In this document: positions 32,260 to 48,568 of the stretch, one piece after another
Layout: each line of letters starts with the position of its first letter
How positions within the stretch are numbered: position 1 is the first letter of the stretch
Assembly (NCBI GenBank): GCA_943356485.1
Contig: CALRFD010000003.1
Span: 101,815 to 163,457 of the forward strand
Direction: 5' to 3'
Length of the DNA stretch: 61,643 nucleotides
Source: Patescibacteria group bacterium
GTDB taxonomy: Bacteria; Patescibacteriota; Microgenomatia; Daviesbacterales; UBA10151
Notes under the pieces: model-generated
Database searches by the model: none
Told to the model about the DNA's origin: nothing
What the model saw: the letters and a program-made list of their open reading frames with translations, nothing else
Translations under genes and position numbers: made by a program

Positions 32260-32304
32260 TTGACATTATCCTAGTAGGGATAGTAAACTATCCTTGTAAG
32301 GATA
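32260..32304 (+). promoter_or_regulatory. promoter with two palindromic operator-like sites
   Basis: TTGACA (32260..32265), 18 nt, TAAACT (32284..32289). Overlapped by TATCCTAGTAGGGATA (32267..32282) and TATCCTTGTAAGGATA (32289..32304). Confidence 0.45.
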
Positions 32305-32312
32305 ATTAAGAT

Positions 32313-32480
32313 ATGGGAAGAGTAAAAGGAAGCCACAATAAAAATTCCACAATTAGACCCTCAACTTCTACTCTGACATCTGCTGAAAGAATCCAACTTC
32401 TCGCCAATTTAATTATAGACAGAATCTTAGAAGACCAAAGAAACGGAAAACCGTTACTTAAAAAGTTAAAGATGAATTGA
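32313..32480 (+). CDS. small basic protein (55 aa) translationally coupled to recombinase 1
   Basis: Manual translation MGRVKGSHNKNSTIRPSTSTLTSAERIQLLANLIIDRILEDQRNGKPLLKKLKMN*. Its stop is 1 nt before the ATG at 32482. Confidence 0.4.
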   Translation: MGRVKGSHNKNSTIRPSTSTLTSAERIQLLANLIIDRILEDQRNGKPLLKKLKMN

Positions 32481-32481
32481 T

Positions 32482-34275: not shown

Positions 34276-34314
34276 CATAAAGACAAATGCGCGCGATTTT
34301 TATATCTATCTATA

Positions 34315-34332
34315 GTCCCGCTACCGCGGGAC
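34315..34332. repeat. GTCCCG..CGGGAC hairpin, copy 1
   Basis: tAGTCCCGCTACCGCGGGACGt; compare 46530..46548 and 49258..49276. Confidence 0.5.
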
Positions 34333-34368
34333 GTTAAGACATTAAAATAATTTAAACAATTTTTTAAT

Positions 34369-34520
34369 TCACCGTTTCGGGCTTTTGTAAAGCCCTAATC
34401 ACCGTAAAACGGTGAACGGTAACGGTAGCCTTACCGTAATTTAGGCTCTAAATTAAGCTAATCACGGTTGAACCGGTGCGTAGTACCGTTGCCTTTATCC
34501 GTTAACCGTACCGTAACGGT
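34369..34520. repeat. iteron-like cluster of ACCGT/ACGGT pentamers
   Basis: 6 ACCGT + 5 ACGGT copies in 150 bp, several as dyads (TCACCGT-AAA-ACGGTGA at 34399..34415; TACCGT-A-ACGGTG at 34509..34521). Confidence 0.7.
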
Positions 34521-35155
34521 GAAAAGCAAAAAACACATAGAGAAAAACAAAATAATCCCTAGGCTTTACTAAATCCCTACATCCCACCCACCCAAATAAT
34601 TGTTGGCGGCACCCCCGCTTTGTCGCTTGCTCGTTTTTACTGCGAAGCAGGAGCTTCGCTCATTTTAAGAAACATCTTATAGAGGTAACTCGCTGCGCTG
34701 GGCGAGAGGGCTCCCTAGGGGGAGCCTCACCCATATCTTCGGCTTCGATTTAGTCTTTACAGTCTCTACCTCGCTACGGGATTAGAGTTTAGTTTTTATA
34801 ATCATGGCATACACCCTCGCTCCCTTTTTTCTGTATATTAACCTCCTGCCGTTGCGGGGGTAATTCCTTTTTGCCCCCGCCTTTTTTATCTATACCCCTG
34901 TCTGTTTCCGGCCGTTCGCTTGCTCTCAAGAGCTGCGCTTCACGAAGCGGTTCCGATGGCTCGGGCCGATGGTACAAATCATCAAGTAAATCTATCGGCC
35001 CTCGCGGAGGTCGGGCAGCACCCAATTTAGTTTTATCTAAGTTCCGAAAAATCTCCTTCTAATGGTGCTGCCCTCCTTTTTTGGGACTATATACCTTGGC
35101 TGGCGGGGGCAGGAAGCCGCCAAAATAATAATGTCGCTTTTGTTATAATGCAAAA

Positions 35156-35953
35156 ATGCCTACAGTTAACGATAAACATTATTATCAGAGTTTCGCAAAA
35201 GAATTAGATAGTAAGTTAGGTAGGATAAACTCATTAATAAATAACCACCCTGGAGAAAAAGGAAATTACCATGAGTATATCCTTAAAAATTTAATATCTA
35301 ATTACCTTCCTTCAAGATATTCTGTTAAAACAGGATTTATTTATGTAGATGATACTCATGTTAGCCCTCAAATAGATCTTATGATTATTGATGAATCTCA
35401 ATCTCCATGTTTTTTGGCTCAATATAATGATTTTGTTGTTACTTACCCTGAGGCAGTTTGTTGCGTTATAGAGGTTAAAACAACTCTTGAAATTGAGGAA
35501 TTCAAAGAATCCACAAATCTAATACAGTTAGTCAAAAATTTAAGTCAATATAATAATCCTAAGGGTGAGGTAATAGGTGGGTTAATTTTTGGCTTTGGGG
35601 GAACTAGATTTAGACCAAAAACTTTAGATAATTGGTATAAAAATAAAATTGAATGTGATTTTACGGAATATCCAGAAGCCATTTTATCTCTCAAAACAGG
35701 ATTAATATTAAAGCATCATCTAAATACTGCTTATGAAGGACACTATTTTATTACAGGGGAAAGTGATTCTTTAAAATGGAAATCATTATCAATATTTATG
35801 GCTATAATTATAAAATTTTGTGAATTAAGATCAGGTGTAGAAAGACCAGAGGGAAAGAATGCATTTGAAAGATTTTCTCTGATACGAGATTTAATGCTAT
35901 CTGCTGAGTTTTTAAGGTACAAAATCGGATTACAAACAAGAAGTAAAAAATAA
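35156..35953 (+). CDS. PD-(D/E)xK-type nuclease-like protein (DUF6602-like N-terminus)
   Basis: GEKGNYHEYILKNLISNYLPSRYSVKTGFIY...SPQIDLMIIDES...VIEVKTTL (D..ExK). Confidence 0.5.
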   Translation: MPTVNDKHYYQSFAKELDSKLGRINSLINNHPGEKGNYHEYILKNLISNYLPSRYSVKTGFIYVDDTHVSPQIDLMIIDESQSPCFLAQYNDFVVTYPEAVCCVIEVKTTLEIEEFKESTNLIQLVKNLSQYNNPKGEVIGGLIFGFGGTRFRPKTLDNWYKNKIECDFTEYPEAILSLKTGLILKHHLNTAYEGHYFITGESDSLKWKSLSIFMAIIIKFCELRSGVERPEGKNAFERFSLIRDLMLSAEFLRYKIGLQTRSKK

Positions 35954-35954
35954 T

Positions 35955-36545
35955 ATGGCCTTTTCCGAAGATCAAAAGTTACAAGTCAAAAAGAAAGCAA
36001 TGTTCCGATGTTGCCGCTGTCAGAATATTGGGATAGATATTCACCATATATTACCTCAAAAAGATAGCGGACCGGATACTTTAGATAATGCTGCTCCATT
36101 ATGTCAAAATTGTCATGATCAATTTGGGGATAATCCAATAAAAAGGAAAGAAATTAAACAAATGAGAGATCACTGGTATGAAGTAGTTGAGCAAATGTAT
36201 ACTCCGAAAACAAGTCTCGAGTTCCCTCTGAAGGAAATAAATGATAAATTGGAAAGCTTGCAAAAAAATCAACAAACAGATTTGTCTGATCTGAAGAAAA
36301 TGCTAAAAGAAATTTCATTTAAGACTATTGATAATATTACTCCGGGTACCGCAGTAGTTACTGCATCAGGTATTATGAACGTTTCAACTGCCTCAATATA
36401 TACAAAACCTTTAAATGGAGGTATTGCAATTAATCCGATGAATCAATGCCAAAAATGCGGTAAATGGTATACAAGAAATATGTCTCCTTTTGGTTATGTA
36501 ACTGTAGACAATTTGTGTGACCAATGTAAATTAGAGACGTGGTAA
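35955..36545 (+). CDS. HNH endonuclease-domain protein
   Basis: CCRCQNIGIDIHHILPQKDSGPDTLDNAAPLCQNCHDQF; start 1 nt after the upstream stop; C-terminal CxxC..CxxC. Confidence 0.7.
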   Translation: MAFSEDQKLQVKKKAMFRCCRCQNIGIDIHHILPQKDSGPDTLDNAAPLCQNCHDQFGDNPIKRKEIKQMRDHWYEVVEQMYTPKTSLEFPLKEINDKLESLQKNQQTDLSDLKKMLKEISFKTIDNITPGTAVVTASGIMNVSTASIYTKPLNGGIAINPMNQCQKCGKWYTRNMSPFGYVTVDNLCDQCKLETW

Positions 36546-36599
36546 TTTTAAAGGTGTAAAATATTTGCACTGATAGATTATTAGATTTATACTAATCTT

Positions 36600-37367
36600 A
36601 TGTCTGATGATTCGCCCAATCAGAATGAGAGTCCGGTTTCTACCCCTCCTGCGTTTGGGACTAATTTCAATGGTTCAGCAGATCCATTAAGTGAAATCCA
36701 TAGGCAAGTAGCAGAACACGAGCAAAGAGACTCTCATGGCAGGTTTGTATCTAGCCATCATGATACAAATCCTGTAAATCTACCTGTTCCACCACAACCT
36801 ACACCTATTCAACCAAATCCCCCAAGTATCCCTAATTACCCCAATCTTCCTAATACTCCTAATCCTTCTGCTCCTACTATTCCACCTGAACCACAAGTAA
36901 TCCATAATAATAACTCAACTACTTCTTCAGATGATGATCCTCTCTTTGAAGCCAAAATCAATAATCCTTTTACTAAATTTTTTAACTGGCTCAAGAAGTT
37001 AATTAAAAATGAAGGAATAAATATTAAGATTAAACCGTTAACTGCAATTGCAATGGTTGTAGCATTAACCGGAGGTGGAGGATTAATTGGTGGAGTTGTT
37101 GGTTATGCTTTCCCTCATTCCTCACCGATACTACACAGAGAAGTAGCTTATCAAGGCTCTATTCAAAAAACTTCCAGTGGGATCTTCTTAATCCTGCCAA
37201 ACTTAGACAAATATACTTTAAAACCTAAAATAAATTCTCCTGTGGATTTTCAGAACTTAAATTCTGGACAAGCGTTTGTCAAAGGTAATTTAACCCCAGA
37301 GAATTTTGTAATTGAGGTAAGTGAAGTTATTCCATTAAATAATGGAAATGTTCAACCTAACCTTTAA
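36600..37367 (+). CDS. proline-rich membrane-anchored hypothetical protein
   Basis: PVPPQPTPIQPNPPSIPNYPNLPNTPNPSAP low-complexity region, then one TM. Confidence 0.4.
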   Translation: MSDDSPNQNESPVSTPPAFGTNFNGSADPLSEIHRQVAEHEQRDSHGRFVSSHHDTNPVNLPVPPQPTPIQPNPPSIPNYPNLPNTPNPSAPTIPPEPQVIHNNNSTTSSDDDPLFEAKINNPFTKFFNWLKKLIKNEGINIKIKPLTAIAMVVALTGGGGLIGGVVGYAFPHSSPILHREVAYQGSIQKTSSGIFLILPNLDKYTLKPKINSPVDFQNLNSGQAFVKGNLTPENFVIEVSEVIPLNNGNVQPNL

Positions 37368-37917
37368 TCAAATTAGATTAAACAGGAATCAAGGTTTTAC
37401 CCTTGTTGAGCTGCTTGTGGTCATTTCTATTATTGGAGTTTTAGCCGCAGTAATTACCTTCGTGATTAATCCCTTAGAATTGCTCAGAAGAAGCAGGGAT
37501 TCAAACAGGCTTAGGGATTTAGATAGTTTATCCCAAGCGATCAATGTGGCTTTGCAAGAAGGATCTTTATCTTCCAGTTATATAGCTACTATATTATGTA
37601 AAGAATCAGGAGAATACCCATGTGTGGGAAAATCTGATGCTGAAACTAGAATGACTGATGGTACTGGCTGGGTTAAAGTAAATTTTGCTTCCCAGAAAGC
37701 ATTAAGTATTCCTACTCTTCCAATAGATCCCACCAATAATAATGAATACCATTACACATATTGTGCAGATAATGACTCGTTTGAATTAGATACTACTTTA
37801 GAATCAGATAAATTTAGAGCTCAATCTGCTATGGACGGAGGAGATACAGCAGATTATTATGAAACAGGATCAAATCTAAACCTGATAGCTAATTCAGGTG
37901 GAAGTTGTGAATATTAA
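37348..37917 (+). CDS. type IV pilin-like / pseudopilin protein
   Basis: Prepilin N-terminal motif GFTLVELLVVISIIGVLAAV. Confidence 0.7.
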   Translation: MFNLTFNQIRLNRNQGFTLVELLVVISIIGVLAAVITFVINPLELLRRSRDSNRLRDLDSLSQAINVALQEGSLSSSYIATILCKESGEYPCVGKSDAETRMTDGTGWVKVNFASQKALSIPTLPIDPTNNNEYHYTYCADNDSFELDTTLESDKFRAQSAMDGGDTADYYETGSNLNLIANSGGSCEY

Positions 37918-38195
37918 GATAGTTTTCTTCTTTTATTTAGTTCTTTAACAATATCTCTTGGTGTTATTTTGAAAAAACTCATCATAACTAGCAAGTGAAA
38001 AAATAAATCTGCAATCTCTGAAATAAGCCTTTCTTTACTTTCATTTTTTGCAGCAATAATTACCTCTGTTGATTCCTCACCAACTTTTTGAATTATTCTA
38101 TCTCCTCCTCTTTTAAACAAAGAGGCAACATAAGAATTTTCTGGCATTTTCTTTTTACGATCTTCGATTATTTTATAAAGTTCTTCTAAATTCAT
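37914..38195 (-). CDS. hisE: phosphoribosyl-ATP pyrophosphatase
   Basis: SYVASLF..G...I.QKVGEESTEVIIAA...SEIADLFFHLLVM. Confidence 0.8.
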   Translation of the reverse strand: MNLEELYKIIEDRKKKMPENSYVASLFKRGGDRIIQKVGEESTEVIIAAKNESKERLISEIADLFFHLLVMMSFFKITPRDIVKELNKRRKLS

Positions 38196-38506
38196 ATTAC
38201 CTCCTGATAAAAACAAGCTTTATTTCCAGTGTGACAAACATTTTTTCCAACAAGTTCTACCTTTATTAAAATTGCATCTTTGTCGCAATCAACAAAAATA
38301 TTTTTTACTTTTAATTTATTTCCTGATGTTTCACCTTTCATCCAAAGTTTTCTTCTACTTCTGCTCCAAAAATATACCAATCCTGTTTTTAAGGTTTCTT
38401 GCAAAGCTTCCTTATTTATATAGCCAAGCATTAGAACCTCATTACTCTTATAATCTTGTATAACAGCAGGGATAAGTCCATTACTTTTTTCAAAGTTGAT
38501 TTTCAT
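38192..38506 (-). CDS. hisI: phosphoribosyl-AMP cyclohydrolase
   Basis: LIPAVIQD...SRSRRKLWMKGETSGN...DCDKDAILIKV..G..CHTG. Confidence 0.9.
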   Translation of the reverse strand: MKINFEKSNGLIPAVIQDYKSNEVLMLGYINKEALQETLKTGLVYFWSRSRRKLWMKGETSGNKLKVKNIFVDCDKDAILIKVELVGKNVCHTGNKACFYQEVI

Positions 38507-38509
38507 AAT

Positions 38510-39265
38510 TTAACTCCTCATTGGAATATTTTTTCTTCTTAAATAATTTTTTAAATCTCCAATAGTTAAATCACCAAAGTGGAACAAAGAAGCAGCTAGT
38601 GCTGCATCAGCAGATCCTTTATTAAAAACATCAAGAAAATCCTCAAGTTTTCCAGCTCCACCGGATGCAATTACTGGCACACTCACAACTTTAGAAATAT
38701 TTTTAGTTAGTTCCAGATCATACCCATTCTTGGTACCATCTCTGTCCATACTAGTTAATAAAATTTCACCAGCACCTTTTCTTACCCCTTCTTTAGCCCA
38801 CTCAATTGCATCTAATCCAGTTGCAGTTCTTCCTCCATTAATAAATACTTCCCAACCTTTCTCATTTTTCTTTGCATCAATTGCTAAAACAATACACTGG
38901 TTACCAAATATCTTTGCTGCTCCTTTAATAAGTTCAGGATTTTTAACAGCACTTGTATTTAAAGACACCTTATCTGCACCTGCCAGCAGAATATTTTGTA
39001 TATCTTCAATAGATCTAATTCCACCGCCGACAGTAAATGGAATAAATACCTGTTTTGCTACTTCTTTGACCACATCAACCATAGTCTCTCTATTATCAGA
39101 TGAAGCAGTAATATCTAGGAATACTAACTCATCAGCTCCTTGACTGTTATAAAACTTAGCCAACTCTACTGGATCTCCAGCATCTTTTATATTTATAAAA
39201 TTAACACCTTTCACGACCTTTCCTTTATCAACATCAAGACAAGGTATTATTCTTTTAGTTAACAT
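38510..39265 (-). CDS. hisF: imidazole glycerol phosphate synthase cyclase subunit
   Basis: [40 protein letters not shown]. Confidence 0.95.
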
Positions 39266-39965
39266 TTGTTACCTCCTCTAAATTTATTCTTCCTTCATAT
39301 AAAGCTTTACCTACTATAACTCCCTCAACACCAATATCTTTTAGCTTTTGAATATCGGAAACATTAGATATTCCACCAGCAATAATTACAGGAATATTTA
39401 TATTTTCTAATAAGCTTTCAACTGATTCGTAATTTGGAGAAGTGAGAGTTCCATCTTTTGTTACGTCTGTATAAATAAATCTTTTGACTCCCAGCTTTTC
39501 CAAGCGTTTAGCGGTTTCGATAAGATTTTTATCTGTACTATCTAACCAGCCATTTTTCATCAATACTCCATTTTTAGCATCCAGACTTACTATTATTTGT
39601 GTAGGATATTGACTGATTAATTCTTTAAATAATTCTTCATCCTCAAATATAATTGTTCCAAGAACAACCTTAGATACCCCTAATCCTAGAAGTTTATCAA
39701 TAGATTCTTTATTTCTAATACCTCCACCTATTTGTATAGGGATAGTGACCGTTTGCAAGATATCTTTTATAACTTCGATATTATCTAATGCTCCATTTTT
39801 AGCACCATCTAAATCTACTATGTGGACAATCTTAGCACCCTTTGACTGCCAAACTTTAGCAACTTTGACAGGATTATCGTTATATATTTTTTCCTTATTA
39901 AAATCACCTTGAATTAGACGGACACATTTACCGTTTTTAATATCAATAGCTGGGATAATTAACAT
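39255..39965 (-). CDS. hisA: ProFAR isomerase
   Basis: [42 protein letters not shown]. Confidence 0.9.
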
Positions 39966-40558
39966 ATTGCCTCCCAAAAGTTTTTTAATAACTCAAATCC
40001 AATCTTTCCACTTTTTTCTGGGTGGAATTGGACACCAAAAATATTATCTTTTTCTAAAACACTACAAAACTTTTCTCCGTATTCTGTTATTCCTTTAGTT
40101 GTCTCTTTATCCTTAGGATCACAATAGTAAGAATTAACAAAATAGAAATAGCTATTATTAATTCCTTTAAGTAGCTTTGAGTTATTACTTATCTTTACCT
40201 GATTCCATCCTATTTCTGGAACCTTCAGTTCAGTATTAAACTTTTTAACCTTCCCCTTTATTATATTTAGACAATCTACATCTCCTTCCTCACTAAAAGA
40301 AAATAGAAGTTGCATTCCTAAGCAAATACCAAGGATTGGTTTATTAGCTTTAACCTGATTAACAATTAATTTATCTAAACTTAGCTTTTTAAGATTAATC
40401 ATTCCCTGACCAGCAGCACCAACTCCTGGTAAAATCAATGCCTTAGCTCTTTTGATTTCTTCAGGATCATTCGAAATTGTCACAGGAATACCTAGCTTAG
40501 TTAAAGCATTTTTAACACTAGTTAGATTTCCTAATCCATAATCAATTACCACTATCAT
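39959..40558 (-). CDS. hisH: imidazole glycerol phosphate synthase glutaminase subunit
   Basis: VIDYGLGNL.SV, LPGVGA, GICLGMQLL, GVQFHPEKS. Confidence 0.95.
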   Translation of the reverse strand: MIVVIDYGLGNLTSVKNALTKLGIPVTISNDPEEIKRAKALILPGVGAAGQGMINLKKLSLDKLIVNQVKANKPILGICLGMQLLFSFSEEGDVDCLNIIKGKVKKFNTELKVPEIGWNQVKISNNSKLLKGINNSYFYFVNSYYCDPKDKETTKGITEYGEKFCSVLEKDNIFGVQFHPEKSGKIGFELLKNFWEAIC

Positions 40559-41145
40559 AATTTCCCTTTCGTTGAAGGTATCTGATTTATTGCTCTTTGA
40601 TCCAACTCACAAGCCATACGAATTGCCCGAGAAACTGCCTTAAAAATTGCTTCAATTTTGTGGTGCTCATTCTCTCCATATTCAACTTTTATAAATAAAT
40701 TAACTTTGGCATTTTGAGCAAAAGCATCCCAAAAGTGTTTTACAAGTTCAGTAGATAAATCTCCAACTTCTTCCCGAACAAAAGGGCACTCAAATCTAAA
40801 TGAGTATCTACCTGCAAAATCTATAACAACTGTAGCTAATGCTTCATCCATCGGCAGGATAAAAAAACCATAACGATTAATCCCTTTTTTATCTCCCAAG
40901 GCTTTTGCAAAAGTTTCACCTAAAACTATTCCTATATCTTCCACTGTGTGATGTTCATCAATATAAGTGTCCCCAGTTGCTTTAACAGTTAAGTCAAACA
41001 ATCCACCTTTGGCAAAAAGATCCAACATGTGGTTTAAAAATCCAACCGACGTCTCAATTTTTCTTTCTCCCACGCCATCAACATTTAATGAAATCTCTAC
41101 ATTAGTTTCATTAGTTTTTCTTTTTATTATTGCTTTACGATTCAT
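40555..41145 (-). CDS. hisB: imidazoleglycerol-phosphate dehydratase
   Basis: RKTNETNVEISLNVDG, DEHHTVEDIGIVLG, ENEHHKIEAIFKA. Confidence 0.95.
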   Translation of the reverse strand: MNRKAIIKRKTNETNVEISLNVDGVGERKIETSVGFLNHMLDLFAKGGLFDLTVKATGDTYIDEHHTVEDIGIVLGETFAKALGDKKGINRYGFFILPMDEALATVVIDFAGRYSFRFECPFVREEVGDLSTELVKHFWDAFAQNAKVNLFIKVEYGENEHHKIEAIFKAVSRAIRMACELDQRAINQIPSTKGKL

Positions 41146-42695
41146 ACAATTATTCCTCCTTTCATAAGTGCGTTGTAAAAATTACCATTAGTTTGCATAT
41201 AGACAAATTTAACTCCAATATTCTTTGCAAATAATTTATCCGTTGGTCTATCTCCACATACAAAAGATTTATCTTTATTTATTTGATTTTTAATTAGAAA
41301 CTTTTCAACAAGACCTGTTTTAGGTTTTCTGCAATTACAATTTTCTGATGGTAAGTGTGGACAAATAAATATTTCTTTAAACGTAATTCCATTTTTCTTA
41401 AAGATACTAAGCATTTTATTTTGAGGGATTTCAAAATTAGCTTTTGGAAATGAAGCAGTTCCTATTCCATTTTGATTTGAAATCATTATAAGTTCATATC
41501 CTCTATTATTAAGTTCCTTAAGACCTTTAATCACTCCATCTAAAATTCTTAATTTTTCAATACTGTCAATTTGAAATGTATCTTGCGGCTCAAAAATTAA
41601 AGTGCCATCTCTATCTAAAAATGCATACTTTGGTTTGCTTAATATTACGTTTTCGTATACCTCAATAAATTGTTTCATTTGCTTCACAGTTCCAATACTT
41701 ACACGAAGAGTATTTTCTATATTCGTCTTATCTTGAGGTCGCAATAAAATACCATTTTCTTTTAATAGCCTCCCTACCTGATTATTATTTGGTTTAAAAA
41801 GTATAAAGTTAGCTGATGAAGAATAATAAGTTACATCATTTTTATTAAAAAATTCTTCAACCATAGGTTTTGCCTTAGTCATAACTTCATCTACATAGTT
41901 TTGTATTTTTTTAAAATCCTCAAGTGAAGCAAAAGCGGCTGATAAAGCCACCATATTTACATCATAGGGACCACGGATTTTTAAAAACTCATTGATATAA
42001 ATATTTGAAGCAACAATATAACCAACTCTAAGTGAAGCGAGACCAAAAGCTTTTGATAGAGTTCTGGTGACAATAATATTTGGATATTTATTTATAAGTG
42101 GAACTGCGCTAACTCCTGAAAATTCAAAATATGCCTCATCAACCAATACGATAGAGTTTGAAGCTTTTTGTGCAATTTTTTTAATATCATTAATTGATAC
42201 CAAAGTTCCTGTGGGGTTATTAGGGTTACAAACTACAATGAGTTTTACCGATTTATTAATCATTCCTAATACCTCATTAATAGGAAATGATAAATCTGCT
42301 TTTTTGTATAAAGGAGTTAGTATTTTATTTCCCATTATTTGAGCAGATTGATAAAACATTGCAAAGCTGGGAGTAGGGATAATTACAGTATCATCCGTCT
42401 TTGTGAATGTACGGAAAATAATATCAATTGCTTGATCAGATCCGTTGGTGATCATAATCTGATCTGCGTTTACACCTACATATTTAGCCAACTTTTTCTC
42501 AAGGCCACCATATTCTGGATAAACCTGTAATTTATTTGTTGTCAAAAAGTCCTGAATAGCTTTTTGTACCTTTAATGGAGGTGGGAGAGTTCGCTCATTA
42601 AAATCCAATAGTATTCCACTAAATCCACGCCGTCCCGAAAGTGGCGGATTATATGATTTCATTTCTTTAATTCTTTGTAATGCTATATTTTTCAT
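41142..42695 (-). CDS. hisC: histidinol-phosphate aminotransferase fused to a HAD-type histidinol-phosphatase domain
   Basis: N-terminal class-II aminotransferase (NPNNPTG, SKAFGLASLRVGY). C-terminal about 160 aa with FLDRDGTL (DxDxT) and CNCRKPK as in HisB-N/GmhB phosphatases. Confidence 0.8.
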   Translation of the reverse strand: MKNIALQRIKEMKSYNPPLSGRRGFSGILLDFNERTLPPPLKVQKAIQDFLTTNKLQVYPEYGGLEKKLAKYVGVNADQIMITNGSDQAIDIIFRTFTKTDDTVIIPTPSFAMFYQSAQIMGNKILTPLYKKADLSFPINEVLGMINKSVKLIVVCNPNNPTGTLVSINDIKKIAQKASNSIVLVDEAYFEFSGVSAVPLINKYPNIIVTRTLSKAFGLASLRVGYIVASNIYINEFLKIRGPYDVNMVALSAAFASLEDFKKIQNYVDEVMTKAKPMVEEFFNKNDVTYYSSSANFILFKPNNNQVGRLLKENGILLRPQDKTNIENTLRVSIGTVKQMKQFIEVYENVILSKPKYAFLDRDGTLIFEPQDTFQIDSIEKLRILDGVIKGLKELNNRGYELIMISNQNGIGTASFPKANFEIPQNKMLSIFKKNGITFKEIFICPHLPSENCNCRKPKTGLVEKFLIKNQINKDKSFVCGDRPTDKLFAKNIGVKFVYMQTNGNFYNALMKGGIIV

Positions 42696-42699
42696 ATTT

Positions 42700-43986
42700 T
42701 TAAAACCTTATTGATACAGAATTTTTGTGAGCTGGTAATTGCTCAACTGTTGCAACTGTTTCAATCGTTTCTTTAATTTTTAACAATCCATCTTTGGTAC
42801 ACTTTTGCACTTGCATCCATTTTCCAAATGCATCAACCCCTAGAGGTGGATACATTTTTGCCATACCACCTGTTGGTAAAACGTGATTCGCTCCAGTTGC
42901 ATAATCTCCACTGGATTTAGATGTATAGTCTCCTAAGAAAACTGATCCAGCATTAGTTATTTTTGAAACTTTCTTTTCTGGATTTTTAGTCATAATTTCC
43001 AAATGCTCAGGCGCATATTCATTACTAAACTTTATTGCCTCGTCTAAGCTTTCAACCAAAGCAATAAGGCCATATTTAGTTAAGGATTCTTTAGCTCTAT
43101 CTTGAGTAGAGAGTGCAGGTAATTGTTTTTCAATTTCTTTGATAGTTTGTTCTGCTATCTCTTTTGAGGTTGTTAAAAGAACACAAGCAGAATCTCCTCC
43201 GTGTTCACCATCTGCCAGTAAATCGGCTGCAATAAATTTAGGATTTGCTGTCTCATCTGCAATAATAAAAACTTCAGAAGGCCCAGCTGGCATATCAATT
43301 GCAATTTTTTCTAAAGCAAGGATTTTTGCTGCTGTTACGTAGATATTTCCTGCTCCGAATATTTTATAGACACTAGGAATTGTTTCCGTTCCATAAAGCA
43401 TTGCAGCAATGGCTTCAGCTCCACCTACTTTATAAATCCTTTTAATATCCAACATTTCTGCTGCAAGTAAAACAACTGGATTAATTTGTCCATTTGATTG
43501 TGGGGGAGTACAGACAATAATTTCTTTACAACCAGCAATTTTGGCAGGTATTGCTGTCATTAAAAGTGATGAAGGATAAACAGCTTTTCCTCCTGGAATA
43601 TATAATCCTACTTTTTCAATCGCTCTCCATTCTCTCCATACTTCTATTCCCCTTTCAGTTTCTACTATATTATCTTTCTTCGCTTTCAGTTGGTTTTTAC
43701 ATACTTGAGTGATATTTTTGATCATTTGTCGAAGTCCAAATATGACTTGAATATCAACTTCATTGTAAGCTTTATCTAATTCTTCCTTAGTGATTTGAAT
43801 AGAATAATCCCCTTTATTACCCGAGAATTTTCTATAGTATCTAATTAGAGCCTTATCGCCATTTTGTTTAACATCTTGCATAATTTGCTTTACCACAGGA
43901 ATAACACTCTGGTAATCACCAGCAGATCTGTTAATAATTCTTTGATAATCTTTATTTGATAAATCTTTTAGTTTAATTACTTTCAT
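42700..43986 (-). CDS. hisD: histidinol dehydrogenase
   Basis: YIPGGKA.YPSS.LM, PSEV.IIAD, DLLADGEHG, GDY..G.NHVLPT. Start moved to MKVIKL behind an AAGGAG RBS (ORF track 42700..44109). Confidence 0.9.
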   Translation of the reverse strand: MKVIKLKDLSNKDYQRIINRSAGDYQSVIPVVKQIMQDVKQNGDKALIRYYRKFSGNKGDYSIQITKEELDKAYNEVDIQVIFGLRQMIKNITQVCKNQLKAKKDNIVETERGIEVWREWRAIEKVGLYIPGGKAVYPSSLLMTAIPAKIAGCKEIIVCTPPQSNGQINPVVLLAAEMLDIKRIYKVGGAEAIAAMLYGTETIPSVYKIFGAGNIYVTAAKILALEKIAIDMPAGPSEVFIIADETANPKFIAADLLADGEHGGDSACVLLTTSKEIAEQTIKEIEKQLPALSTQDRAKESLTKYGLIALVESLDEAIKFSNEYAPEHLEIMTKNPEKKVSKITNAGSVFLGDYTSKSSGDYATGANHVLPTGGMAKMYPPLGVDAFGKWMQVQKCTKDGLLKIKETIETVATVEQLPAHKNSVSIRF

Positions 43987-43994
43987 ATTTCTCC

Positions 43995-44867
43995 TTAAAT
44001 AATTTTCTCTATTGGCAAAACAATTATTCCTTGTGCACCAATATTTTTTAGTTTTTCTATTGTTTCCCAAAAGACCTGTTCTTTGATAACTGTTTGAATT
44101 GATATCCAACCTGTTTTTGCAAGTGGAGCAATGGTTGGAGATTTAAGACCAGGGACTATTTTCTTTATTTTAGGTAGTAAGTCTTTGGGAGCATTCATCA
44201 TTACATATTTGTAATCCTTAGCTGATAACACACCTTTAAATCTGGTGAGCAACTTTTCCACTAAAATTTTTCTTCCGTTTAATAAACTCTTTTCATTTGC
44301 TACTAAAACCGCTTCAGATTCGTATATTTTGGTAAGCATTCTTAAATCATTCAAAGCAAGAGTACTTCCTGTTGAAGTAAGGTCAACTATAGCTTCTGCT
44401 ACTCCTAGAGCTGGAGCAATTTCTACCGAACCACTAATTTTAACTACTTCTATTGATATGTTATTCTCTTTGAAAAACTTTTTTGTAGACTCTGGATACG
44501 AGGTCGCAATAGTCTTACCTTTTAGATCAGATATATCTTTAACCTCTGAATCCTTAGGCACTGCTACCATTAGGGAGCAGAAACCATATCTTAGATTAAG
44601 AAGTTTCTTAACCTTAGGTCTTTCTTCGTTTAGTATATTTTGACCTAAAATACCCAGGTCCACGGTTCCAGATGCTACATAGTCAGGAATATCATCGTCT
44701 CTGACATATAAAATTTCTAAGGGAAAATTTCTGCATACAGAAAATAGCCTTTGTTTGTAACTTTCAAACTCAAGACCTGATTTCCTTAGGAATTCAAGCG
44801 TCTCTTCAGTTAAACGCCCTCCTTTTTGTATTGCTAGTTTTAATTTTTTACTATCTAAATTTGCCAT
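43995..44867 (-). CDS. hisG: ATP phosphoribosyltransferase, long form
   Basis: LKLAIQKGGRL, RDDDIPDYV..G..DLGI.G, DLTSTGSTL, plus a C-terminal regulatory domain. Confidence 0.9.
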   Translation of the reverse strand: MANLDSKKLKLAIQKGGRLTEETLEFLRKSGLEFESYKQRLFSVCRNFPLEILYVRDDDIPDYVASGTVDLGILGQNILNEERPKVKKLLNLRYGFCSLMVAVPKDSEVKDISDLKGKTIATSYPESTKKFFKENNISIEVVKISGSVEIAPALGVAEAIVDLTSTGSTLALNDLRMLTKIYESEAVLVANEKSLLNGRKILVEKLLTRFKGVLSAKDYKYVMMNAPKDLLPKIKKIVPGLKSPTIAPLAKTGWISIQTVIKEQVFWETIEKLKNIGAQGIIVLPIEKII

Positions 44868-44889
44868 ATTTTTCCTTTCAATCTTTGTG

Positions 44890-44961
44890 GGTGGCTAAGG
44901 AGAATCGAACTCCCGCAACTGATTCCACAAACCAGTGTTCTGCCACTGAACTATAGCCACC
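44890..44961 (-). tRNA. tRNA-His (GUG) with G-1 and C73
   Basis: Hand fold: G-1, acceptor GTGGCTA/TAGCCAC, anticodon loop TTGTGGA, T-loop TTCGATT. Ends 22 nt upstream of the hisG ATG. Confidence 0.9.
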
Positions 44962-44965
44962 ATTT

Positions 44966-45225
44966 TTCCAATAAAAAACCTCCCGTTCATTACCAACCAC
45001 GAAAAATACGTGATTAATAAGGAACGAGAGGCCATAAAAAAAGGACCCCCCGCGGTCCCATCCTTTGTTCTTAAAAAGAGTTACTTCTTAAGCTCTTGGT
45101 CCGGCTCTAGTCTTGTGACTGACAGCGGTCGATATTCTTTGTACAGCTATATCTTTCTGTAGGGTATTTGGCCCTCAGCTCTTGGATCGTGACTCCAATA
45201 CAAACGCCTTTACATATTCAGTTGT
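44966..45225 (-). promoter_or_regulatory. candidate T-box riboswitch leader, His-specific
   Basis: Minus-strand AAAGGAUGGGACCGCGG (45050..45066) against T-box consensus GGGUGGNACCGCG. UGGG matches C73 of tRNA-His. An antiterminator/terminator alternative can be drawn. CAC triplets at 45115..45117 and 45189..45191. Confidence 0.6.
44973..45031 (-). terminator. long intrinsic terminator (T-box terminator helix)
   Basis: Minus strand: CCUCUCGUUCC...GAACGGGAGG followed by UUUUUU. Confidence 0.7.
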
Positions 45226-45231
45226 AAAAGT

Positions 45232-45260
45232 AGTATAACAATAAATACTTATCTTGTCAA
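45232..45260 (-). promoter_or_regulatory. sigma70-type promoter for the T-box/tRNA-His/his transcript
   Basis: Minus strand: TTGACA (45260..45255), 17 nt, TATACT (45237..45232). Confidence 0.55.
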
Positions 45261-45283
45261 ATATGTTATAGGATATCTTAATA

Positions 45284-46372
45284 TTACTTAACTATTTCTT
45301 CTTTCTTATCGCTGCTATCGGTCTTAATTGTTTTAGCTTGTAGTAATTTCCGTTTTTCTAAACTACCCTCCAACATCTCTATTTTTTTATACTTATCAGC
45401 TAATTGCATTTGTAAAGAATCTGTACTCCCATCTTCTTCAGAGATATCTACTCTTCCTCCATTATCAATAAATCTATAGATTAGATCTATAGCCTTTACT
45501 AGTGCAGTGTTAACCTCTTTTGTATCGTTAGTCCCTTCTAGTTTATTTGAGAACTTCTCCATTAACACTCCAACTATTCTTTCGACATTCCCATCTAGCA
45601 GTTTTTCCTCATCCTGTTTCATACCTAAAGAGGCATTTTCTAGTTGTAGTTTTTCTATCTCCAAGTTTAATTTTCTAAGACTTAAAATCTTTTCATAAAT
45701 ACTAAGTAGTTCTTTAACAACTATACCTATAGCCTTTGCAACCAAAACAGCTAGTGCCAGATCTACTACTAACGGAGATCCCTTCTGAATAGAAAATATC
45801 TTAGATTCCTCTGCGGGGTCCTTTGTTAATCTGGAGAAAGCTAATAAAATAATTCTCCATTCTTTAGAATACTTTTCTAAATCATTAAGAGTTTCTACTG
45901 AAGAATCTTTATCGAATACTAATTGTAATAGTTGTTTACCTTTTTCTAATTCTTCACCACCTTGAGTTGCTAGGTTAGTCATATTACTTAGAAGATTTTT
46001 TGTAGTTTGGTTGAAGTTTGTTAAGTTATTTAAAATCTCTTGAACTTGTTGTGCAGCACCAGCAGGATCTGCTTGATATTTTTCAAAGATACTTTCCAAG
46101 GCTTTTTTCGCTTTGATACCTATAAATTTATCTGCTCCATAATCCTCAAATAATTTTAATTTTAAGAAGTCCCATCCTTTTGGTTGAATTTCGGTTTGAA
46201 GCTGCTCAATTTGTTCTTTTTTTTGGAGTAATTGAGCTGAATTTTCTGGAGAAGGAGAGGATTGAGCTTGATTGAGTAGATTTATTAATTCTTGATATAA
46301 ATTGGGGAGATTATTCTCGTTTATAACTTTGTCTATATAACTTAAAACTGAAACAAATTCTTTTAATTGCAT
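45284..46372 (-). CDS. hypothetical coiled-coil protein with one central TM
   Basis: 362-aa ORF; no motif recognised. Its ATG directly follows a hairpin + T-run, so the start is uncertain. Confidence 0.4.
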   Translation of the reverse strand: MQLKEFVSVLSYIDKVINENNLPNLYQELINLLNQAQSSPSPENSAQLLQKKEQIEQLQTEIQPKGWDFLKLKLFEDYGADKFIGIKAKKALESIFEKYQADPAGAAQQVQEILNNLTNFNQTTKNLLSNMTNLATQGGEELEKGKQLLQLVFDKDSSVETLNDLEKYSKEWRIILLAFSRLTKDPAEESKIFSIQKGSPLVVDLALAVLVAKAIGIVVKELLSIYEKILSLRKLNLEIEKLQLENASLGMKQDEEKLLDGNVERIVGVLMEKFSNKLEGTNDTKEVNTALVKAIDLIYRFIDNGGRVDISEEDGSTDSLQMQLADKYKKIEMLEGSLEKRKLLQAKTIKTDSSDKKEEIVK

Positions 46373-46393
46373 AAAAAAGCCCCTCTTGGGGGC
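46373..46393 (-). terminator. intrinsic terminator abutting the start codon of the 45284..46372 ORF
   Basis: Minus strand: GCCCCCAAGAGGGGC + TTTTTT, then immediately ATG. Confidence 0.45.
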
Positions 46394-46529
46394 ATTAATA
46401 AAAAGTATATAACTTTACTTAATAAACCACAAGATTATATTTTGATATAAATTGCCTCTCTTGAAACAATATCTTTAAGCAGTATAGTAAGGGGGCGAAA
46501 AGTTCTTTAAAATTTTTGCGTTTTTTGTA

Positions 46530-46548
46530 GTCCCGATTATATCGGGAC
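46530..46548. repeat. GTCCCG..CGGGAC hairpin, copy 2
   Basis: tAGTCCCGATTATATCGGGACGt. Confidence 0.5.
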
Positions 46549-46583
46549 GTGTTCGAGCCGACAGTTTAGAGCGGTAGGCCTCC

Positions 46584-46680
46584 GGCCGAGCGGATACAGA
46601 TAAAAGCCCCGCCGCAGGCGGGGCATCTTTCGACTCAATGCGATTGGAATTGCGTTCGAATTTTTCGATAGACCGCCAGC
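46584..46680. repeat. 97-bp perfect inverted repeat, arm B (partner 34147..34243)
   Basis: Reverse complement identical to 34147..34243. Confidence 0.9.
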
Positions 46681-46760
46681 AAATCTGGATCGGAGGGGCG
46701 CGGAACGTCAGAAATCGCGGGGAGGGGGTACGTTGCGAGGGTTTTCCAGCCTCGGTTTTG
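46677..46760. repeat. 84-bp perfect inverted repeat, left arm (partner 48311..48394)
   Basis: Reverse complement identical to 48311..48394. Shares the 4 nt CAGC/GCTG with arm B. Confidence 0.9.
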
Positions 46761-46885
46761 GAAGTTGTCGGGAATAAAAAGAAACAAAAAACGGACTGGT
46801 ACGCAAAAATTTAGCTCACGTTGTTCGCAGAAAAGAACTTTTCCTTTTAAGAGGAAAACCAAAAAATATAATTAAATAAACTGCC

Positions 46886-48424
46886 ATGAAATATATAGCA
46901 TATTGCAGAAAATCTACAGATGAACCAGACAGACAGATCCTCTCCATTGAGGCTCAAATTGCAGAAGTTAAGGAGTTTGCAGAGAGAGAAGGTTTAGAAG
47001 TAGTTAAATTTATTACCGAGAGTAAAACTGCTAAAGAACCTGGAAGAGAAAAATTTACAGAACTTATAAGGATGTTGGAAGCAGGAGAGGCTAATGGAAT
47101 CTTGAGTTGGCATCCGGATAGATTAGCTAGAAACTCGATAGACGGAGGAAGAATTATTTACCTTTTAGATACAGGTAAGTTACTTGACTTAAAGTTTCCT
47201 CAATTTTGGTTTGATAATACTCCTCAGGGAAAGTTCATGCTAAATATTGCTTTTGGGCAAAGTAAATATTATGTAGACAATTTATCTGAAAATGTTAAAA
47301 GGGGTAACAGACAAAAACTTCGTAGAGGTGAGTGGCCTAATCACGCACCATTTGGGTACATTAATGACTCGAGGACAAAACTTATTCAGATAGATAGGAA
47401 ACGAGCTCCGTTTTTAGTTAAGGCTTTTGAAATGTTTTCAACTGGTGGATACACCTATGTAGACATCATAAATTATTTTACTAAGAATAAAGTATTTAAT
47501 ACTTCTAATGGAGATAGAATTTTCCATAAAGATAAGATGAAAAGAATATTAGGAGATCCTTTCTATACAGGATTGATGAGATTTAATGGTGAACTATATG
47601 AGGGGAAGCATAAATCTTTAATAACTAAAAAGCTATTTGACCAAGTTCAGGAAATAATTAAATCCAGGAATAGAAAACAAAAAGTTATTAAACAGGAGTT
47701 TGAATTTTTAGGACTAATGATGTGTAAAGAATGTGGTGGAGCAATAACTGCTGAAAAACATACAAGATTTTATCCCAGAACTAATAATACTGTAGATTTC
47801 ATTTACTACAGATGCTCTAAGAAAAAAGGCTACTGTTCACAAAGGTACGCTAAAAAAGATGATATAGAGCAACAGATTAAGGATGCTGTGTCAAAAGTTT
47901 CTTTAACCGAGTTTGCCGCCAATAAATTCCTAGAATGGGCCAATAAAGATGCTGAGAAAGAAAAGACAAAAGTATCTGGGTTAATAGAACAGTTAAAAAG
48001 AGAACTCAAAGAAACCGAAGAAAAATTAGATAGATTACTTGAAGGCTACCTAGACAAAGTAATTGATTCCCAAGAATATCAACATAAAAAGAACGTCCTA
48101 ATACAAGAAAAACTATCATTACAGGGAAGAATTAAGGAAATTTCAGAGCGAGGCACTGAATGGCTCGAACCACTCAAAAACTTCATTGGTAGCGCACTTT
48201 CGTGCGCAAAAATCGCGCGCGCAAAAAATACCAACCATGATTTGGCAATCATGGTAAAAACTGTCGGCTCGAACTTCTTTTTATTCAATCAACAACTTCA
48301 AGTGGAATATCAAAACCGAGGCTGGAAAACCCTCGCAACGTACCCCCTCCCCGCGATTTCTGACGTTCCGCGCCCCTCCGATCCAGATTTGCTGCGGGAC
48401 ATGGATTCGAACCATGATAGATAG
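46886..48424 (+). CDS. large serine recombinase (recombinase 2)
   Basis: AYCRKSTDEPDRQ..SIEAQ, WHPDRLARN, zinc ribbon CKECGG...YYRCSKKKGYC, coiled coil. The last ~38 codons lie in the IR and tRNA-Gln, so the true stop is uncertain. Confidence 0.85.
   Translation: MKYIAYCRKSTDEPDRQILSIEAQIAEVKEFAEREGLEVVKFITESKTAKEPGREKFTELIRMLEAGEANGILSWHPDRLARNSIDGGRIIYLLDTGKLLDLKFPQFWFDNTPQGKFMLNIAFGQSKYYVDNLSENVKRGNRQKLRRGEWPNHAPFGYINDSRTKLIQIDRKRAPFLVKAFEMFSTGGYTYVDIINYFTKNKVFNTSNGDRIFHKDKMKRILGDPFYTGLMRFNGELYEGKHKSLITKKLFDQVQEIIKSRNRKQKVIKQEFEFLGLMMCKECGGAITAEKHTRFYPRTNNTVDFIYYRCSKKKGYCSQRYAKKDDIEQQIKDAVSKVSLTEFAANKFLEWANKDAEKEKTKVSGLIEQLKRELKETEEKLDRLLEGYLDKVIDSQEYQHKKNVLIQEKLSLQGRIKEISERGTEWLEPLKNFIGSALSCAKIARAKNTNHDLAIMVKTVGSNFFLFNQQLQVEYQNRGWKTLATYPLPAISDVPRPSDPDLLRDMDSNHDR
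48311..48394. repeat. 84-bp perfect inverted repeat, right arm
   Basis: Identical to the reverse complement of 46677..46760. Overlaps the tRNA-Gln 3' end by 3 nt. Confidence 0.9.
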
Positions 48425-48462
48425 CTCCAAAGGCTATCGTCCTGCCATTAGACGATCCCGCA
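48392..48462 (-). tRNA. tRNA-Gln (UUG)
   Basis: Hand fold: U1-A72 acceptor TGCGGGA/TCCCGCA, G73, anticodon loop CTTTGGA, T-arm CATGG-TTCGAAT-CCATG. Confidence 0.85.
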
Positions 48463-48568
48463 TTATAAACCTCTACGTATTATACCCTAAATTAACTGAT
48501 ATGAAATATTTGCATCCTGAATAAAAATATGACTACTATAAAGATATTATAGAAAGGAGGTGAAAAAC

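What the first reader, a model, noticed from the sequence alone, without database searches (positions are those of the whole stretch)
46584..48462. Chimeric junction and three-site relationship at the tRNA-Gln 3' end (att-like sites of the serine recombinases)
Three junctions share a 4-nt core GCTG. Site A is ..ggtatgttg|GCTG|gcggtctatcg (34143..). Site B, read on the minus strand, is ..ccagattt|GCTG|gcggtctatcg (46680..). Site C is ..ccagattt|GCTG|cgggacatgg (48391..), where the right side is the 3' end of tRNA-Gln. Site B therefore equals the left half of C plus the right half of A, which is the signature of a recombinant (attL/attR-type) site. The right half shared by A and B begins like a decayed tRNA-Gln 3' end: gcggtctatcgaaaaattcgaac against cgggacatgg---attcgaac. 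This is consistent with successive integrations at tRNA-Gln. Both recombinase ORFs read through these sites, so recombination would change their C-terminal tails.
Basis: seen in the sequence. Interest (0 to 1): 0.7.

Follow-up and report, generated by a model that had tools for sequence, protein, structure and literature searches.

The report
Integrase attachment sites at tRNA-Gln
The three related junctions are real attachment sites of a 14-kb mobile element that a serine integrase inserted at the end of a tRNA-Gln gene, and the "chimeric" middle site is an inverted spare copy of the element's own attachment site, kept by nearly all relatives for an unknown reason.

Summary
Site B (core 46677-46680, minus strand) equals the left arm of C (84 nt, 100%) plus the right arm of A (108 nt, 96%).

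A and C are the hybrid sites (attL, attR) and B has the parental attP arrangement. The fourth site, attB (A-left joined to tRNA-Gln), exists in two related metagenome contigs that lack the 14.2 kb in between.

So element E2 (34147-48390: Rec2, B, and a cargo that includes a his operon) inserted at a tRNA-Gln already occupied by the Rec1 element.

The shared right arm is not a decayed tRNA. It is a conserved P' arm that carries the T-loop word TTCGAAC 4-5 bp further from the core than the tRNA does. That offset is the known attP/attB rule of large serine integrases.

The same layout recurs across this family from candidate phyla radiation (CPR, Patescibacteria) bacteria: x.Ra - cargo - inverted attP - integrase reading antisense into a tRNA. 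It is seen in 66 of 80 genome loci.

Neither module was ever found flipped, so B is not an evident inversion switch. Its role is unresolved. I rate this a new variant of a known kind.

The parts
32482..34275 (+). Rec1, the serine recombinase of the older element E1. Its last 125 nt (34151-34275) are read-through into E2 DNA. The native end would be ..MLAAGHGFEP, read antisense into tRNA-Gln.
   Evidence: Pfam Resolvase. Homolog tails read antisense into tRNA T-arms as ..GFEP. The rebuilt tail equals that of P0121.
34147..34257 (+). Site A = attL of E2. It comprises core GCTG (34147-34150) plus the P' arm Ra, which carries TTCGAAC 15 nt from the core and a terminator hairpin at 34203-34221. The left flank is the Rec1 3' end, which served as the B arm.
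34257..34334 (+). Flank of A. It holds inverted copies of int codons KIARAKNT (34257-34269 and 34289-34301, matching 48208-48233) and a hairpin (about 34313-34334). The same arrangement is seen in the related element L037.
34259..35122 (.). Element-borne non-coding region with an iteron-like ACCGT/ACGGT cluster (34361-34540) and GC-rich blocks, conserved 80-87% with the L037 element. It has no Rfam match.
35156..46372 (.). Cargo of E2: DUF6602, HNH, a hypothetical protein and a pilin-like protein on the + strand; the his operon, tRNA-His (44889-44960) and a 362-aa hypothetical protein on the - strand.
   Evidence: Pfam; tRNA. The cargo is absent from the empty site in L081/L082.
46498..46567 (+). 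Left flank of B. It holds the conserved block AAAATTTTTGCGTTTTTT (reverse complement of the block upstream of int), a hairpin with covarying stems (46527-46551), and GTTCGAGCCGACAGTTT (46551-46567, reverse complement of int codons KTVGSN).
46576..46760 (-). Site B: a complete attP-configured copy, inverted and internal to E2. It comprises Ra' (46576-46676, terminator at 46606-46624 on the - strand), core CAGC (46677-46680) and Lc' (46681-46760).
   Evidence: The family-wide presence is shown.
46784..46843 (+). Conserved A-rich block (AAAAAACG..CGCAAAAATTT..AAAAGAACTTTT) upstream of the Rec2 start. In this window it is split by insertions.
46886..48424 (+). Rec2, a large serine recombinase (Resolvase + Recombinase + Zn_ribbon_recom). 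The last 30 nt read antisense into tRNA-Gln, giving the tail ..DLLRDMDSNHDR. In the attP form the tail would be ..DLLAVYRKIRTQFQSH.
48311..48394 (+). Site C = attR of E2. It comprises the P arm Lc (48311-48390, the int 3' end) and core GCTG (48391-48394, which are tRNA positions 71-74). Upstream accessory words lie at 48208-48233 and 48258-48274.
48391..48462 (-). tRNA-Gln(UUG), the B' arm of attB. TTCGAAC (the T-loop) lies 10 nt from the core. The encoded 3' end is now ..G-CAA instead of ..G-CCA.

Best explanation
Notation: Lc is the P arm (the Rec2 3' end), Ra is the P' arm, La is the Rec1 3' end, Rc is the tRNA-Gln arm, and x is variable chromosomal flank.

Shown. The window holds two mobile elements stacked at one tRNA-Gln gene. 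E1 carries Rec1 and first sat directly against the tRNA 3' end. A 14.2-kb element E2 (34147-48390) then entered the same place. It did so by large-serine-recombinase recombination between its attP (Lc-GCTG-Ra) and an attB made of the Rec1 3' end plus the tRNA-Gln acceptor/T-arm. This produced attL (site A) and attR (site C).

The crossover lies inside GCTG, which corresponds to tRNA positions 71-74.

Inferred. Rec2 most likely reads the universal T-loop word TTCGAAC with its zinc-ribbon domain. The word sits 10 bp from the core in the tRNA arm and 15 bp from the core in the P' arm.

Shown. Site B is not a product of these events. It is a second, inverted, complete attP-configured copy that this integrase family carries between the divergently placed integrase and cargo genes.

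Inferred, with low confidence. B is most likely a cis-acting part of the module: an integrase-binding and terminator-bearing insulator or operator between the two conserved promoter-proximal blocks. Its two arms are kept like the working arms by DNA-level homogenisation. It is probably not a site that is itself recombined.
For: Four-site quartet with an empty site. L081/L082 match window 32252-34154 and then jump straight to 48388-48466. The rebuilt Rec1 tail is identical to that of P0121.

Family-wide pattern. In 60 of 80 genome loci the int ORF runs antisense into a tRNA gene. An inverted upstream copy of the int 3' end is present in 66 of 80 loci. The conserved P' arm lies outside that copy whichever tRNA is targeted. 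A third site, x.Ra, lies 0.6-8.8 kb upstream in 37 loci.

Spacing rule. TTCGAAC is shifted by +4 or +5 bp in 29 of 33 loci, matching the published attP/attB rule.

Other support. Rec2 has the full domain set of large serine recombinases (LSRs) and the R8/S10/R79/R82 motif. Cargo between A and B varies from locus to locus. B contains a predicted terminator and lies between two inverted conserved blocks. The arrangement is replicated in 25 metagenome contigs.
Against: No experiment has been done. The crossover is placed only to within 4 nt.

The B arm of attB shows no conserved sequence, which is unusual for LSRs.

No recombination directionality factor (RDF) and no free circular form of this particular element was found; the exact B junction had no hit in the metagenome collection.

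The operator/insulator role for B does not explain why about 100 nt per arm stay 98% identical with evenly spread mismatches. It also does not explain the short co-varying inverted words, m17 (the int KTVGSN codons) and the KIARAKNT-coding piece.

The his operon could in principle have entered the element by a later event.
Confidence: 0.8

Rival explanations
1. One reading: B is an attL/attR-type recombinant made in this genome by recombination between an A-type and a C-type site, and Ra is a decayed, displaced tRNA-Gln 3' end.
For: B does equal C-left plus A-right. Ra shares GCTG and TTCGAAC with the tRNA arm.
Against: The empty site pairs A-left with the tRNA, so A and C are the hybrids. B-type sites occur in 66 of 80 independent loci. 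The Ra-like arm is conserved in elements that target other tRNAs, and it carries the attP-type 4-5 bp offset.
Confidence: 0.04
2. B is one arm of a Hin/Gin-like invertible switch. On this view Rec2 flips its own gene (B x C) or the cargo (A x B), changing its tail or cargo expression.
For: The recombinase gene sits between near-perfect inverted repeats, and the cargo sits between a second pair. The arms are homogenised within each element.
Against: No flipped integrase was seen: 0 of 66 genome loci and 0 of 10 complete metagenome loci have the tRNA next to the upstream copy. No flipped cargo was seen: the m17/P1 blocks (the KTVGSN-codon word and the A-rich block upstream of int) are on the B side in all 38 cases (the window and 37 loci) and never on the A side. 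LSRs do not normally pair attP with attR, attL or attP (abstract listed).
Confidence: 0.07
3. A minimal IS-like transposon: only Rec2 between 84-nt terminal inverted repeats, inserted between an Ra' sequence and the tRNA.
For: Perfect 84-nt inverted repeats bracket a single gene.
Against: The empty site shows the insertion ends at A and C, 14.2 kb apart. The Ra' flank is element DNA conserved across the family. There is no target-site duplication. The core is not palindromic in many loci (GTGA, GTGG), so a Lc.Lc' circle joint could not form.
Confidence: 0.03
4. B exists so that a single-stranded form of the element can fold back. The B strand is the exact complement of the A x C joint. It could therefore make a double-stranded attP, or act as a splint, after uptake of single-stranded DNA, as in CTXphi.
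For: The complementarity is a geometric fact. Long, evenly conserved arms fit a need for a duplex. The elements carry no transfer genes.
Against: There is no evidence of a single-stranded stage and no rolling-circle or ssDNA genes in E2. The short inverted words are not collinear with such a fold.
Confidence: 0.06
5. Assembly artefact: the inverted repeats come from a mis-joined metagenome contig.
For: The 84-nt perfect repeat is close to assembler k-mer sizes.
Against: The same layout appears in 66 genome loci and 25 metagenome contigs from many projects. Repeat lengths range from 43 to 166 nt and identities from 73 to 100%. The inner junction at 46760/46761 shares no long k-mer with 48310/48311.
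Confidence: 0.01

Closest known systems
Phage large serine integrases (Listeria A118/LI, Bxb1, phiC31) and their attP/attB/attL/attR logic
   Same: The domain set is the same. A short core is flanked by arms. The hybrid sites are as expected. The zinc-ribbon motif lies about 5 bp further out in attP than in attB (PMC3783163).
   Different: The target is the 3' end of tRNA genes, with the universal T-loop as the outer motif. The attP overlaps the integrase's own 3' end. There are no phage genes and no recognisable RDF. There is an extra inverted attP copy inside the element.
Tyrosine-integrase genomic islands at tRNA 3' ends, with tandem accretion
   Same: Integration is at the tRNA 3' end. The integrase gene sits next to the tRNA. 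Elements stack at one tRNA (E1 then E2).
   Different: The enzyme is a serine recombinase, not a tyrosine one. The shared core is only 4-7 nt rather than a long direct repeat of the tRNA end.
Mx8 IntP (attP inside the int gene, from my own knowledge) and SCCmec Ccr recombinases
   Same: As in Mx8, integration rewrites the integrase C-terminus. As with Ccr, an LSR targets the 3' end of a conserved gene and composite islands form.
   Different: Mx8 Int is a tyrosine enzyme. SCC elements have no internal inverted attP copy and do not target tRNAs.
Hin/Gin invertible segments and the yeast 2-micron FLP inverted repeats
   Same: The recombinase gene is bracketed by inverted repeats that contain its site.
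   Different: No flipped isomer was seen in any locus. The enzyme is an LSR. One repeat copy is split by integration.
Integron cassette arrays
   Same: Single or few ordinary genes (def, EamA, MFS, RmlD, GNAT and others) are carried as units. Direct arrays of integrase-less units occur in L087, L104 and L160.
   Different: There is no IntI, attI or attC. Each unit carries its own conserved upstream block. The units are anchored at tRNA genes.

Membership tests
Large serine recombinase (serine integrase) | N-terminal resolvase catalytic domain with the nucleophilic serine and conserved arginines | tested here: met
   PF00239 E=4.6e-22 for Rec2 and 4.5e-9 for Rec1. R8, S10, R79 and R82 are invariant in 16 homologs.
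Large serine recombinase (serine integrase) | C-terminal recombinase domain plus zinc ribbon domain | tested here: met
   PF07508 and PF13408 hit Rec2. For Rec1 only the resolvase domain passes, although some homologs carry PF07508.
Large serine recombinase (serine integrase) | attP x attB gives attL + attR with arms exchanged at a short core | tested here: met
   All four sites were recovered: B, L081/L082, A and C.
Large serine recombinase (serine integrase) | Outer (zinc-ribbon) motif about 5 bp further from the core in attP than in attB | tested here: met
   The spacing is 15 versus 10 nt in the window. The shift is +4 or +5 in 29 of 33 loci. The rule is from PMC3783163.
Large serine recombinase (serine integrase) | 2-bp crossover, and directionality controlled by an RDF | not testable with these tools
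   The crossover is narrowed to GCTG only. No conserved small partner gene was found in the cargo.
DNA invertase switch (Hin/Gin type) | Both orientations of the segment occur | tested here: not met
   No flipped integrase in 0 of 66 plus 0 of 10 loci, and no flipped cargo in 0 of 38 cases (the window and 37 loci).
DNA invertase switch (Hin/Gin type) | Small serine recombinase with a C-terminal HTH | tested here: not met
   Rec2 is a 512-aa LSR.
IS / transposon with terminal inverted repeats | The inverted repeats mark the ends of the inserted DNA, with a target-site duplication | tested here: not met
   The insertion ends are A and C, in direct orientation and 14.2 kb apart. B is internal.
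Integron | IntI tyrosine recombinase, attI, and attC-bounded promoterless cassettes | tested here: not met
   The recombinase is a serine enzyme. The units carry their own conserved upstream block.

The most novel reading that the evidence does not exclude
The internal inverted attP copy, together with the short co-varying inverted words around both attP copies, is a working part of a previously undescribed mobility mechanism. In this reading an RDF-less serine-integrase platform stacks gene units at tRNA genes of CPR bacteria. The spare copy would act as a fold-back or splint partner, a repair template, or a topological accessory site that sets directionality. The platform would move ordinary metabolic genes, up to a whole his operon, between these reduced genomes.
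Probability: 0.25. Interest if true: 0.8.

Novelty: new variant of a known kind. Interest (0 to 1): 0.6.

Why it matters
It gives a complete, sequence-defined attP/attB/attL/attR set for a large and diverse family of serine integrases. Their target half-site is the universal tRNA T-arm, which makes the family a natural test of the zinc-ribbon spacing rule.

The relatives target at least 15 different tRNAs. They could therefore show how target specificity is re-programmed.

It also shows that CPR/Patescibacteria genomes carry small integrase-plus-cargo units that bring in housekeeping-type genes, here a his operon. This bears on how these reduced genomes gain metabolism.

The conserved inverted attP copy is unexplained. 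It may point to a control or mobility step not known for serine integrases.

Tried and rejected
1. TTGGCTGGCGG at 35096 as a fourth site. Rejected, because the related element L037 has an unrelated sequence at that position.

2. RNA pairing between the repeat copies. The mismatch spectrum shows no G.U bias on either strand (28 versus 29; 14 versus 22), and half of the Lc mismatches are transversion-type.

3. An LTR-like "born identical, then decay" clock. Divergences of the two repeat pairs are uncorrelated (rho -0.18, n=38), and there are strongly discordant loci.

4. Selection limited to the integrase binding site. Mismatches are spread evenly over about 90 nt.

5. A conserved partner gene (RDF) next to B. 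The 362-aa neighbour has no homolog in the 80 loci, and the cargo is unrelated between loci.

6. A phage origin. Only 1 hit in the viral contig collection.

7. A free circular form of this element. The exact 24-nt B junction is absent from the metagenome collection. A pattern for gene-m17-Lc.Ra-m17 (m17 = the KTVGSN-codon word, flanking the joint on both sides) found nothing in the fetched loci.

8. Rfam matches for the B region and for the GC-rich non-coding region. None found.

9. The left end of E1. It was not found.

10. Dyad symmetry between the P and P' arms. Inspected by eye only and inconclusive.

11. Literature. No paper describing this family or layout was found.
Full report
**Notation.** La is the Rec1 3' end (left arm of A). 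Lc is the Rec2 3' end (the P arm). Ra is the P' arm. Rc is the tRNA-Gln arm. x is variable chromosomal flank. m17 is the 17-nt word that encodes the int residues KTVGSN. "Rec2" and "int" name the same integrase gene.

**1. Checking the observation.** The sequence is as described.
- Site A reads ..ggtatgTTGGCTG|GCGGTCTATCGAAAAATTCGAAC (core 34147-34150).
- Site B on the minus strand reads ..ccagaTTTGCTG|GCGGTCTATCGAAAAATTCGAAC (core 46677-46680).
- Site C reads ..ccagaTTTGCTG|CGGGACATGGATTCGAAC (core 48391-48394). Its right side is the reverse complement of the 3' end of tRNA-Gln(UUG), which lies at 48391/2-48462 on the minus strand.

The repeat finder reports two inverted repeats that meet at B: 34144-34251 / 46576-46683 (108 nt, 96%) and 46677-46760 / 48311-48394 (84 nt, 100%). 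BLAST E-values are 1e-50 and 9e-43. The motif GCTG-N8-22-TYCGAAC occurs three times in 61.6 kb, exactly at these sites, against 0.28 expected. This is far beyond chance.

**2. The genes.** Rec2 (46886-48424, 512 aa) has the full large-serine-recombinase domain set. Rec1 (32482-34275, 597 aa) passes only the resolvase domain.

The 12.3 kb between A and B holds:
- a GC-rich non-coding stretch;
- DUF6602, HNH and pilin-like genes;
- a complete his operon, tRNA-His and a 362-aa hypothetical protein.

A Replic_Relax gene lies upstream of Rec1. Homologs place the organism in the CPR/Patescibacteria, Microgenomates group, with Daviesbacteria closest.

**3. The family pattern.** I fetched 80 loci encoding Rec2 relatives from one-per-species genomes.
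- In 60 of them the ORF runs antisense into a tRNA gene. The 23 tRNA-Gln cases include all the closest relatives. More distant members target Glu, Leu, Lys, Pro, Val, Ser, Ile and others. This explains the recurrent ..DSN.. tails in the protein alignment.
- In 66 of 80 loci the last 43-166 nt of the gene, ending at the tRNA junction, are repeated in inverted orientation upstream of the start. The gap is 31-150 nt in all but four loci, where it is 466-628 nt.
- The DNA outside that upstream copy is not chromosome. Read on the minus strand, it is a conserved arm (..GTTTACGAAAAAATTCGAAC..) whichever tRNA is targeted.
- In 37 loci a third site lies 0.6-8.8 kb further upstream, in direct orientation with the tRNA junction. 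It consists of variable flank, then the core, then that same arm.

The general map is therefore: x.Ra - cargo - Ra'.Lc' - int - Lc.tRNA. The window follows it exactly. Twenty-five metagenome contigs show the same B-type module, and the ten with a complete integrase all read into a tRNA.

**4. Which site is which.** Rec1 relatives also read antisense into tRNAs, with ..LAAxxGFEP tails. P0121, 90% identical to Rec1, ends ..QGQGMLAAGHGFEP. Joining the window's A-left to the window's tRNA-Gln predicts exactly this tail and the same length, 563 aa.

P0121's two contigs (L081, L082) match window 32252-34154 at 85%. They then continue directly into window 48388-48466 (tRNA-Gln, 97%), with nothing in between.

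The four-way alignment is a textbook quartet:
- attB = La.Rc (L081);
- attP = Lc.Ra (site B);
- attL = La.Ra (site A);
- attR = Lc.Rc (site C).

A keeps the G of TTGGCTG and C keeps the T of TTTGCTG, so the exchange lies within GCTG. These are tRNA positions 71-74. Hence E2 is 34147-48390 (14.2 kb), and it entered a tRNA-Gln already occupied by E1.

**5. The right arm is an attP half-site, not a dead tRNA.** From the core to TTCGAAC is 10 nt in the tRNA arm, where the word is the T-loop, and 15 nt in Ra. Across the family the shift is +5 in 18 loci and +4 in 11 loci out of 33; the four others are pattern mis-calls.

Rutherford et al. showed that LSR attB sites carry the zinc-ribbon motif 5 bp closer to the centre than attP sites do (PMC3783163). 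The fit suggests, by inference, that this family uses the universal T-loop as its outer motif. Re-targeting to other tRNAs would then happen through the acceptor and T-stem positions.

The left (B) arm of attB shows no conservation. This explains why an occupied site (La.Rc) could be used, and why stacking is common. Tails that do not read into a tRNA are junctions with a later element's P' arm (L083, and probably L021) or attP-type joints (L031).

**6. Consequences for the two proteins.** Integration of E2 replaced Rec1's ..MLAAGHGFEP end by 44 codons of read-through across the Ra terminator (predicted hairpin at 34203-34221). Rec2 changed from ..DLLAVYRKIRTQFQSH in the attP form to ..DLLRDMDSNHDR. 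The attP-form tail resembles the tails of P0010, L031 and L021. Ra is read in different frames at A and at B, so it is not conserved coding DNA. The encoded tRNA 3' end changed from ..G-CCA to ..G-CAA.

**7. What is B for?** B is conserved in nearly every locus that has enough flank. It lies between two inverted, highly conserved blocks: AAAATTTTTGCGTTTTTT on its left and the reverse complement upstream of int.

To its left there is also:
- a hairpin whose stem differs between loci but is always present;
- an inverted copy of the int codons KTVGSN (m17), whose variants co-vary with the gene copy within each locus.

An inverted copy of the int codons KIARAKNT follows Ra at site A.

Within an element the two repeat pairs are 98.2% (Lc) and 98.5% (Ra) identical, although the arms diverge strongly between elements. 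Three further results bear on how this identity is kept:
- The mismatches show no G.U strand bias.
- They are spread evenly over about 90 nt.
- Divergence of the two pairs is uncorrelated.

These results point to DNA-level homogenisation. They argue against RNA pairing, against selection limited to the binding site, and against a single duplication event.

Neither the integrase segment nor the cargo segment is ever found flipped: 0 of 66 and 0 of 10 loci for the integrase, and 0 of 38 cases (the window and 37 loci) for the cargo. An inversion switch is therefore unlikely.

B carries a predicted terminator on the minus strand. By eye, there is also a hairpin plus T-run at the inner end of Lc' on the plus strand.

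My best guess, at low confidence, is an integrase-binding insulator or operator between the divergent integrase and cargo units. A role in mobility is not excluded, for example as a fold-back partner, a repair template or a topological accessory site.

**8. Cargo.** Between A and B, other loci carry one to a few ordinary genes. In the loci with small cargo these are mostly divergent from int. Examples are peptide deformylase (twice), EamA (twice), MFS, RmlD, an anthranilate-PRT-like gene, radical SAM, GNAT and HTH.

The closest element (L037, integrase 81% identical) shares with E2 the non-coding region next to A, at 80-87% nt identity. It does not share the his operon.

Metagenome contigs also show integrase-less units. 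Some are direct arrays, in which each unit ends in an int 3' remnant joined to the next unit's P' arm (L087, L104, L160). One is a unit lying between 267-nt inverted B-type modules (L149).

**9. Comparison and novelty.** This works like a phage or island LSR, and it meets every LSR criterion I could test in silico. It differs in the following ways:
- it targets tRNA 3' ends, usually the domain of tyrosine integrases;
- its attP overlaps the integrase's own 3' end;
- it has no phage genes (one hit in the viral collection) and no recognisable RDF;
- it always keeps an inverted spare attP with bracketing inverted words.

I found no paper describing this. I rate it a new variant of a known kind.

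Noticed in passing
window 34361-34540; L037 1280-1395: An iteron-like cluster: 11 of the window's 45 ACCGT/ACGGT pentamers fall within 180 nt. The related element has a different repeated word (AATTGTGG/CCACAATT) at the same position, which suggests an element-specific DNA-binding array or origin.
   Followed up: partly
window 34572-35122 (L037 1402-1874): GC-rich non-coding DNA conserved at 80-87% nt between two elements whose integrases are only 79% identical at the nucleotide level. It has no Rfam match and ends in a TGTTATAAT -10-like box ahead of the first cargo gene.
   Followed up: partly
window 37914-44960: A complete histidine biosynthesis operon plus tRNA-His lies inside the inserted 14.2 kb of a CPR genome. 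It is absent between the Rec1 homolog and tRNA-Gln in L081/L082.
   Followed up: partly
L087 1450-3600; L104 1750-3100; L160 10580-11925; L149 1-3345: Integrase-less units. Three are direct arrays of the form 'P' arm - KTVGSN word - hairpin - A-rich block - cargo - int 3' remnant - core - next P' arm'. L149 is a two-gene unit between 267-nt inverted attP-type modules.
   Followed up: partly
window 48389-48391: After integration the tRNA-Gln gene encodes ..G-CAA instead of ..G-CCA (as in L081), so the mature 3' end must be added enzymatically.
   Followed up: yes
window 32482-34150 and P0121-P0240: The Rec1 family is a second, unrelated-looking serine recombinase family that also reads antisense into tRNA T-arms (..GFEP tails). 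In this window it shows no upstream inverted copy of its 3' end.
   Followed up: partly
window 317, 20607, 49627, 50504: A dispersed GC-rich hairpin word, CACCCTTCGGGTGG (and its reverse complement), occurs four times in the window.
   Followed up: no
L069 11489-11540; L073 8795-8840: Two relatives are joined not to a tRNA or a P' arm but to a shared sequence (..GGTGGAACC(C/T)(T)TTTTCGA..), a possible non-tRNA target.
   Followed up: no
L001-L080: Many contigs end within or next to these elements, which suggests the repeats often break metagenome assemblies. Several of the metagenome-assembled genomes (MAGs) that carry this CPR gene are labelled Gammaproteobacteria or similar.
   Followed up: no
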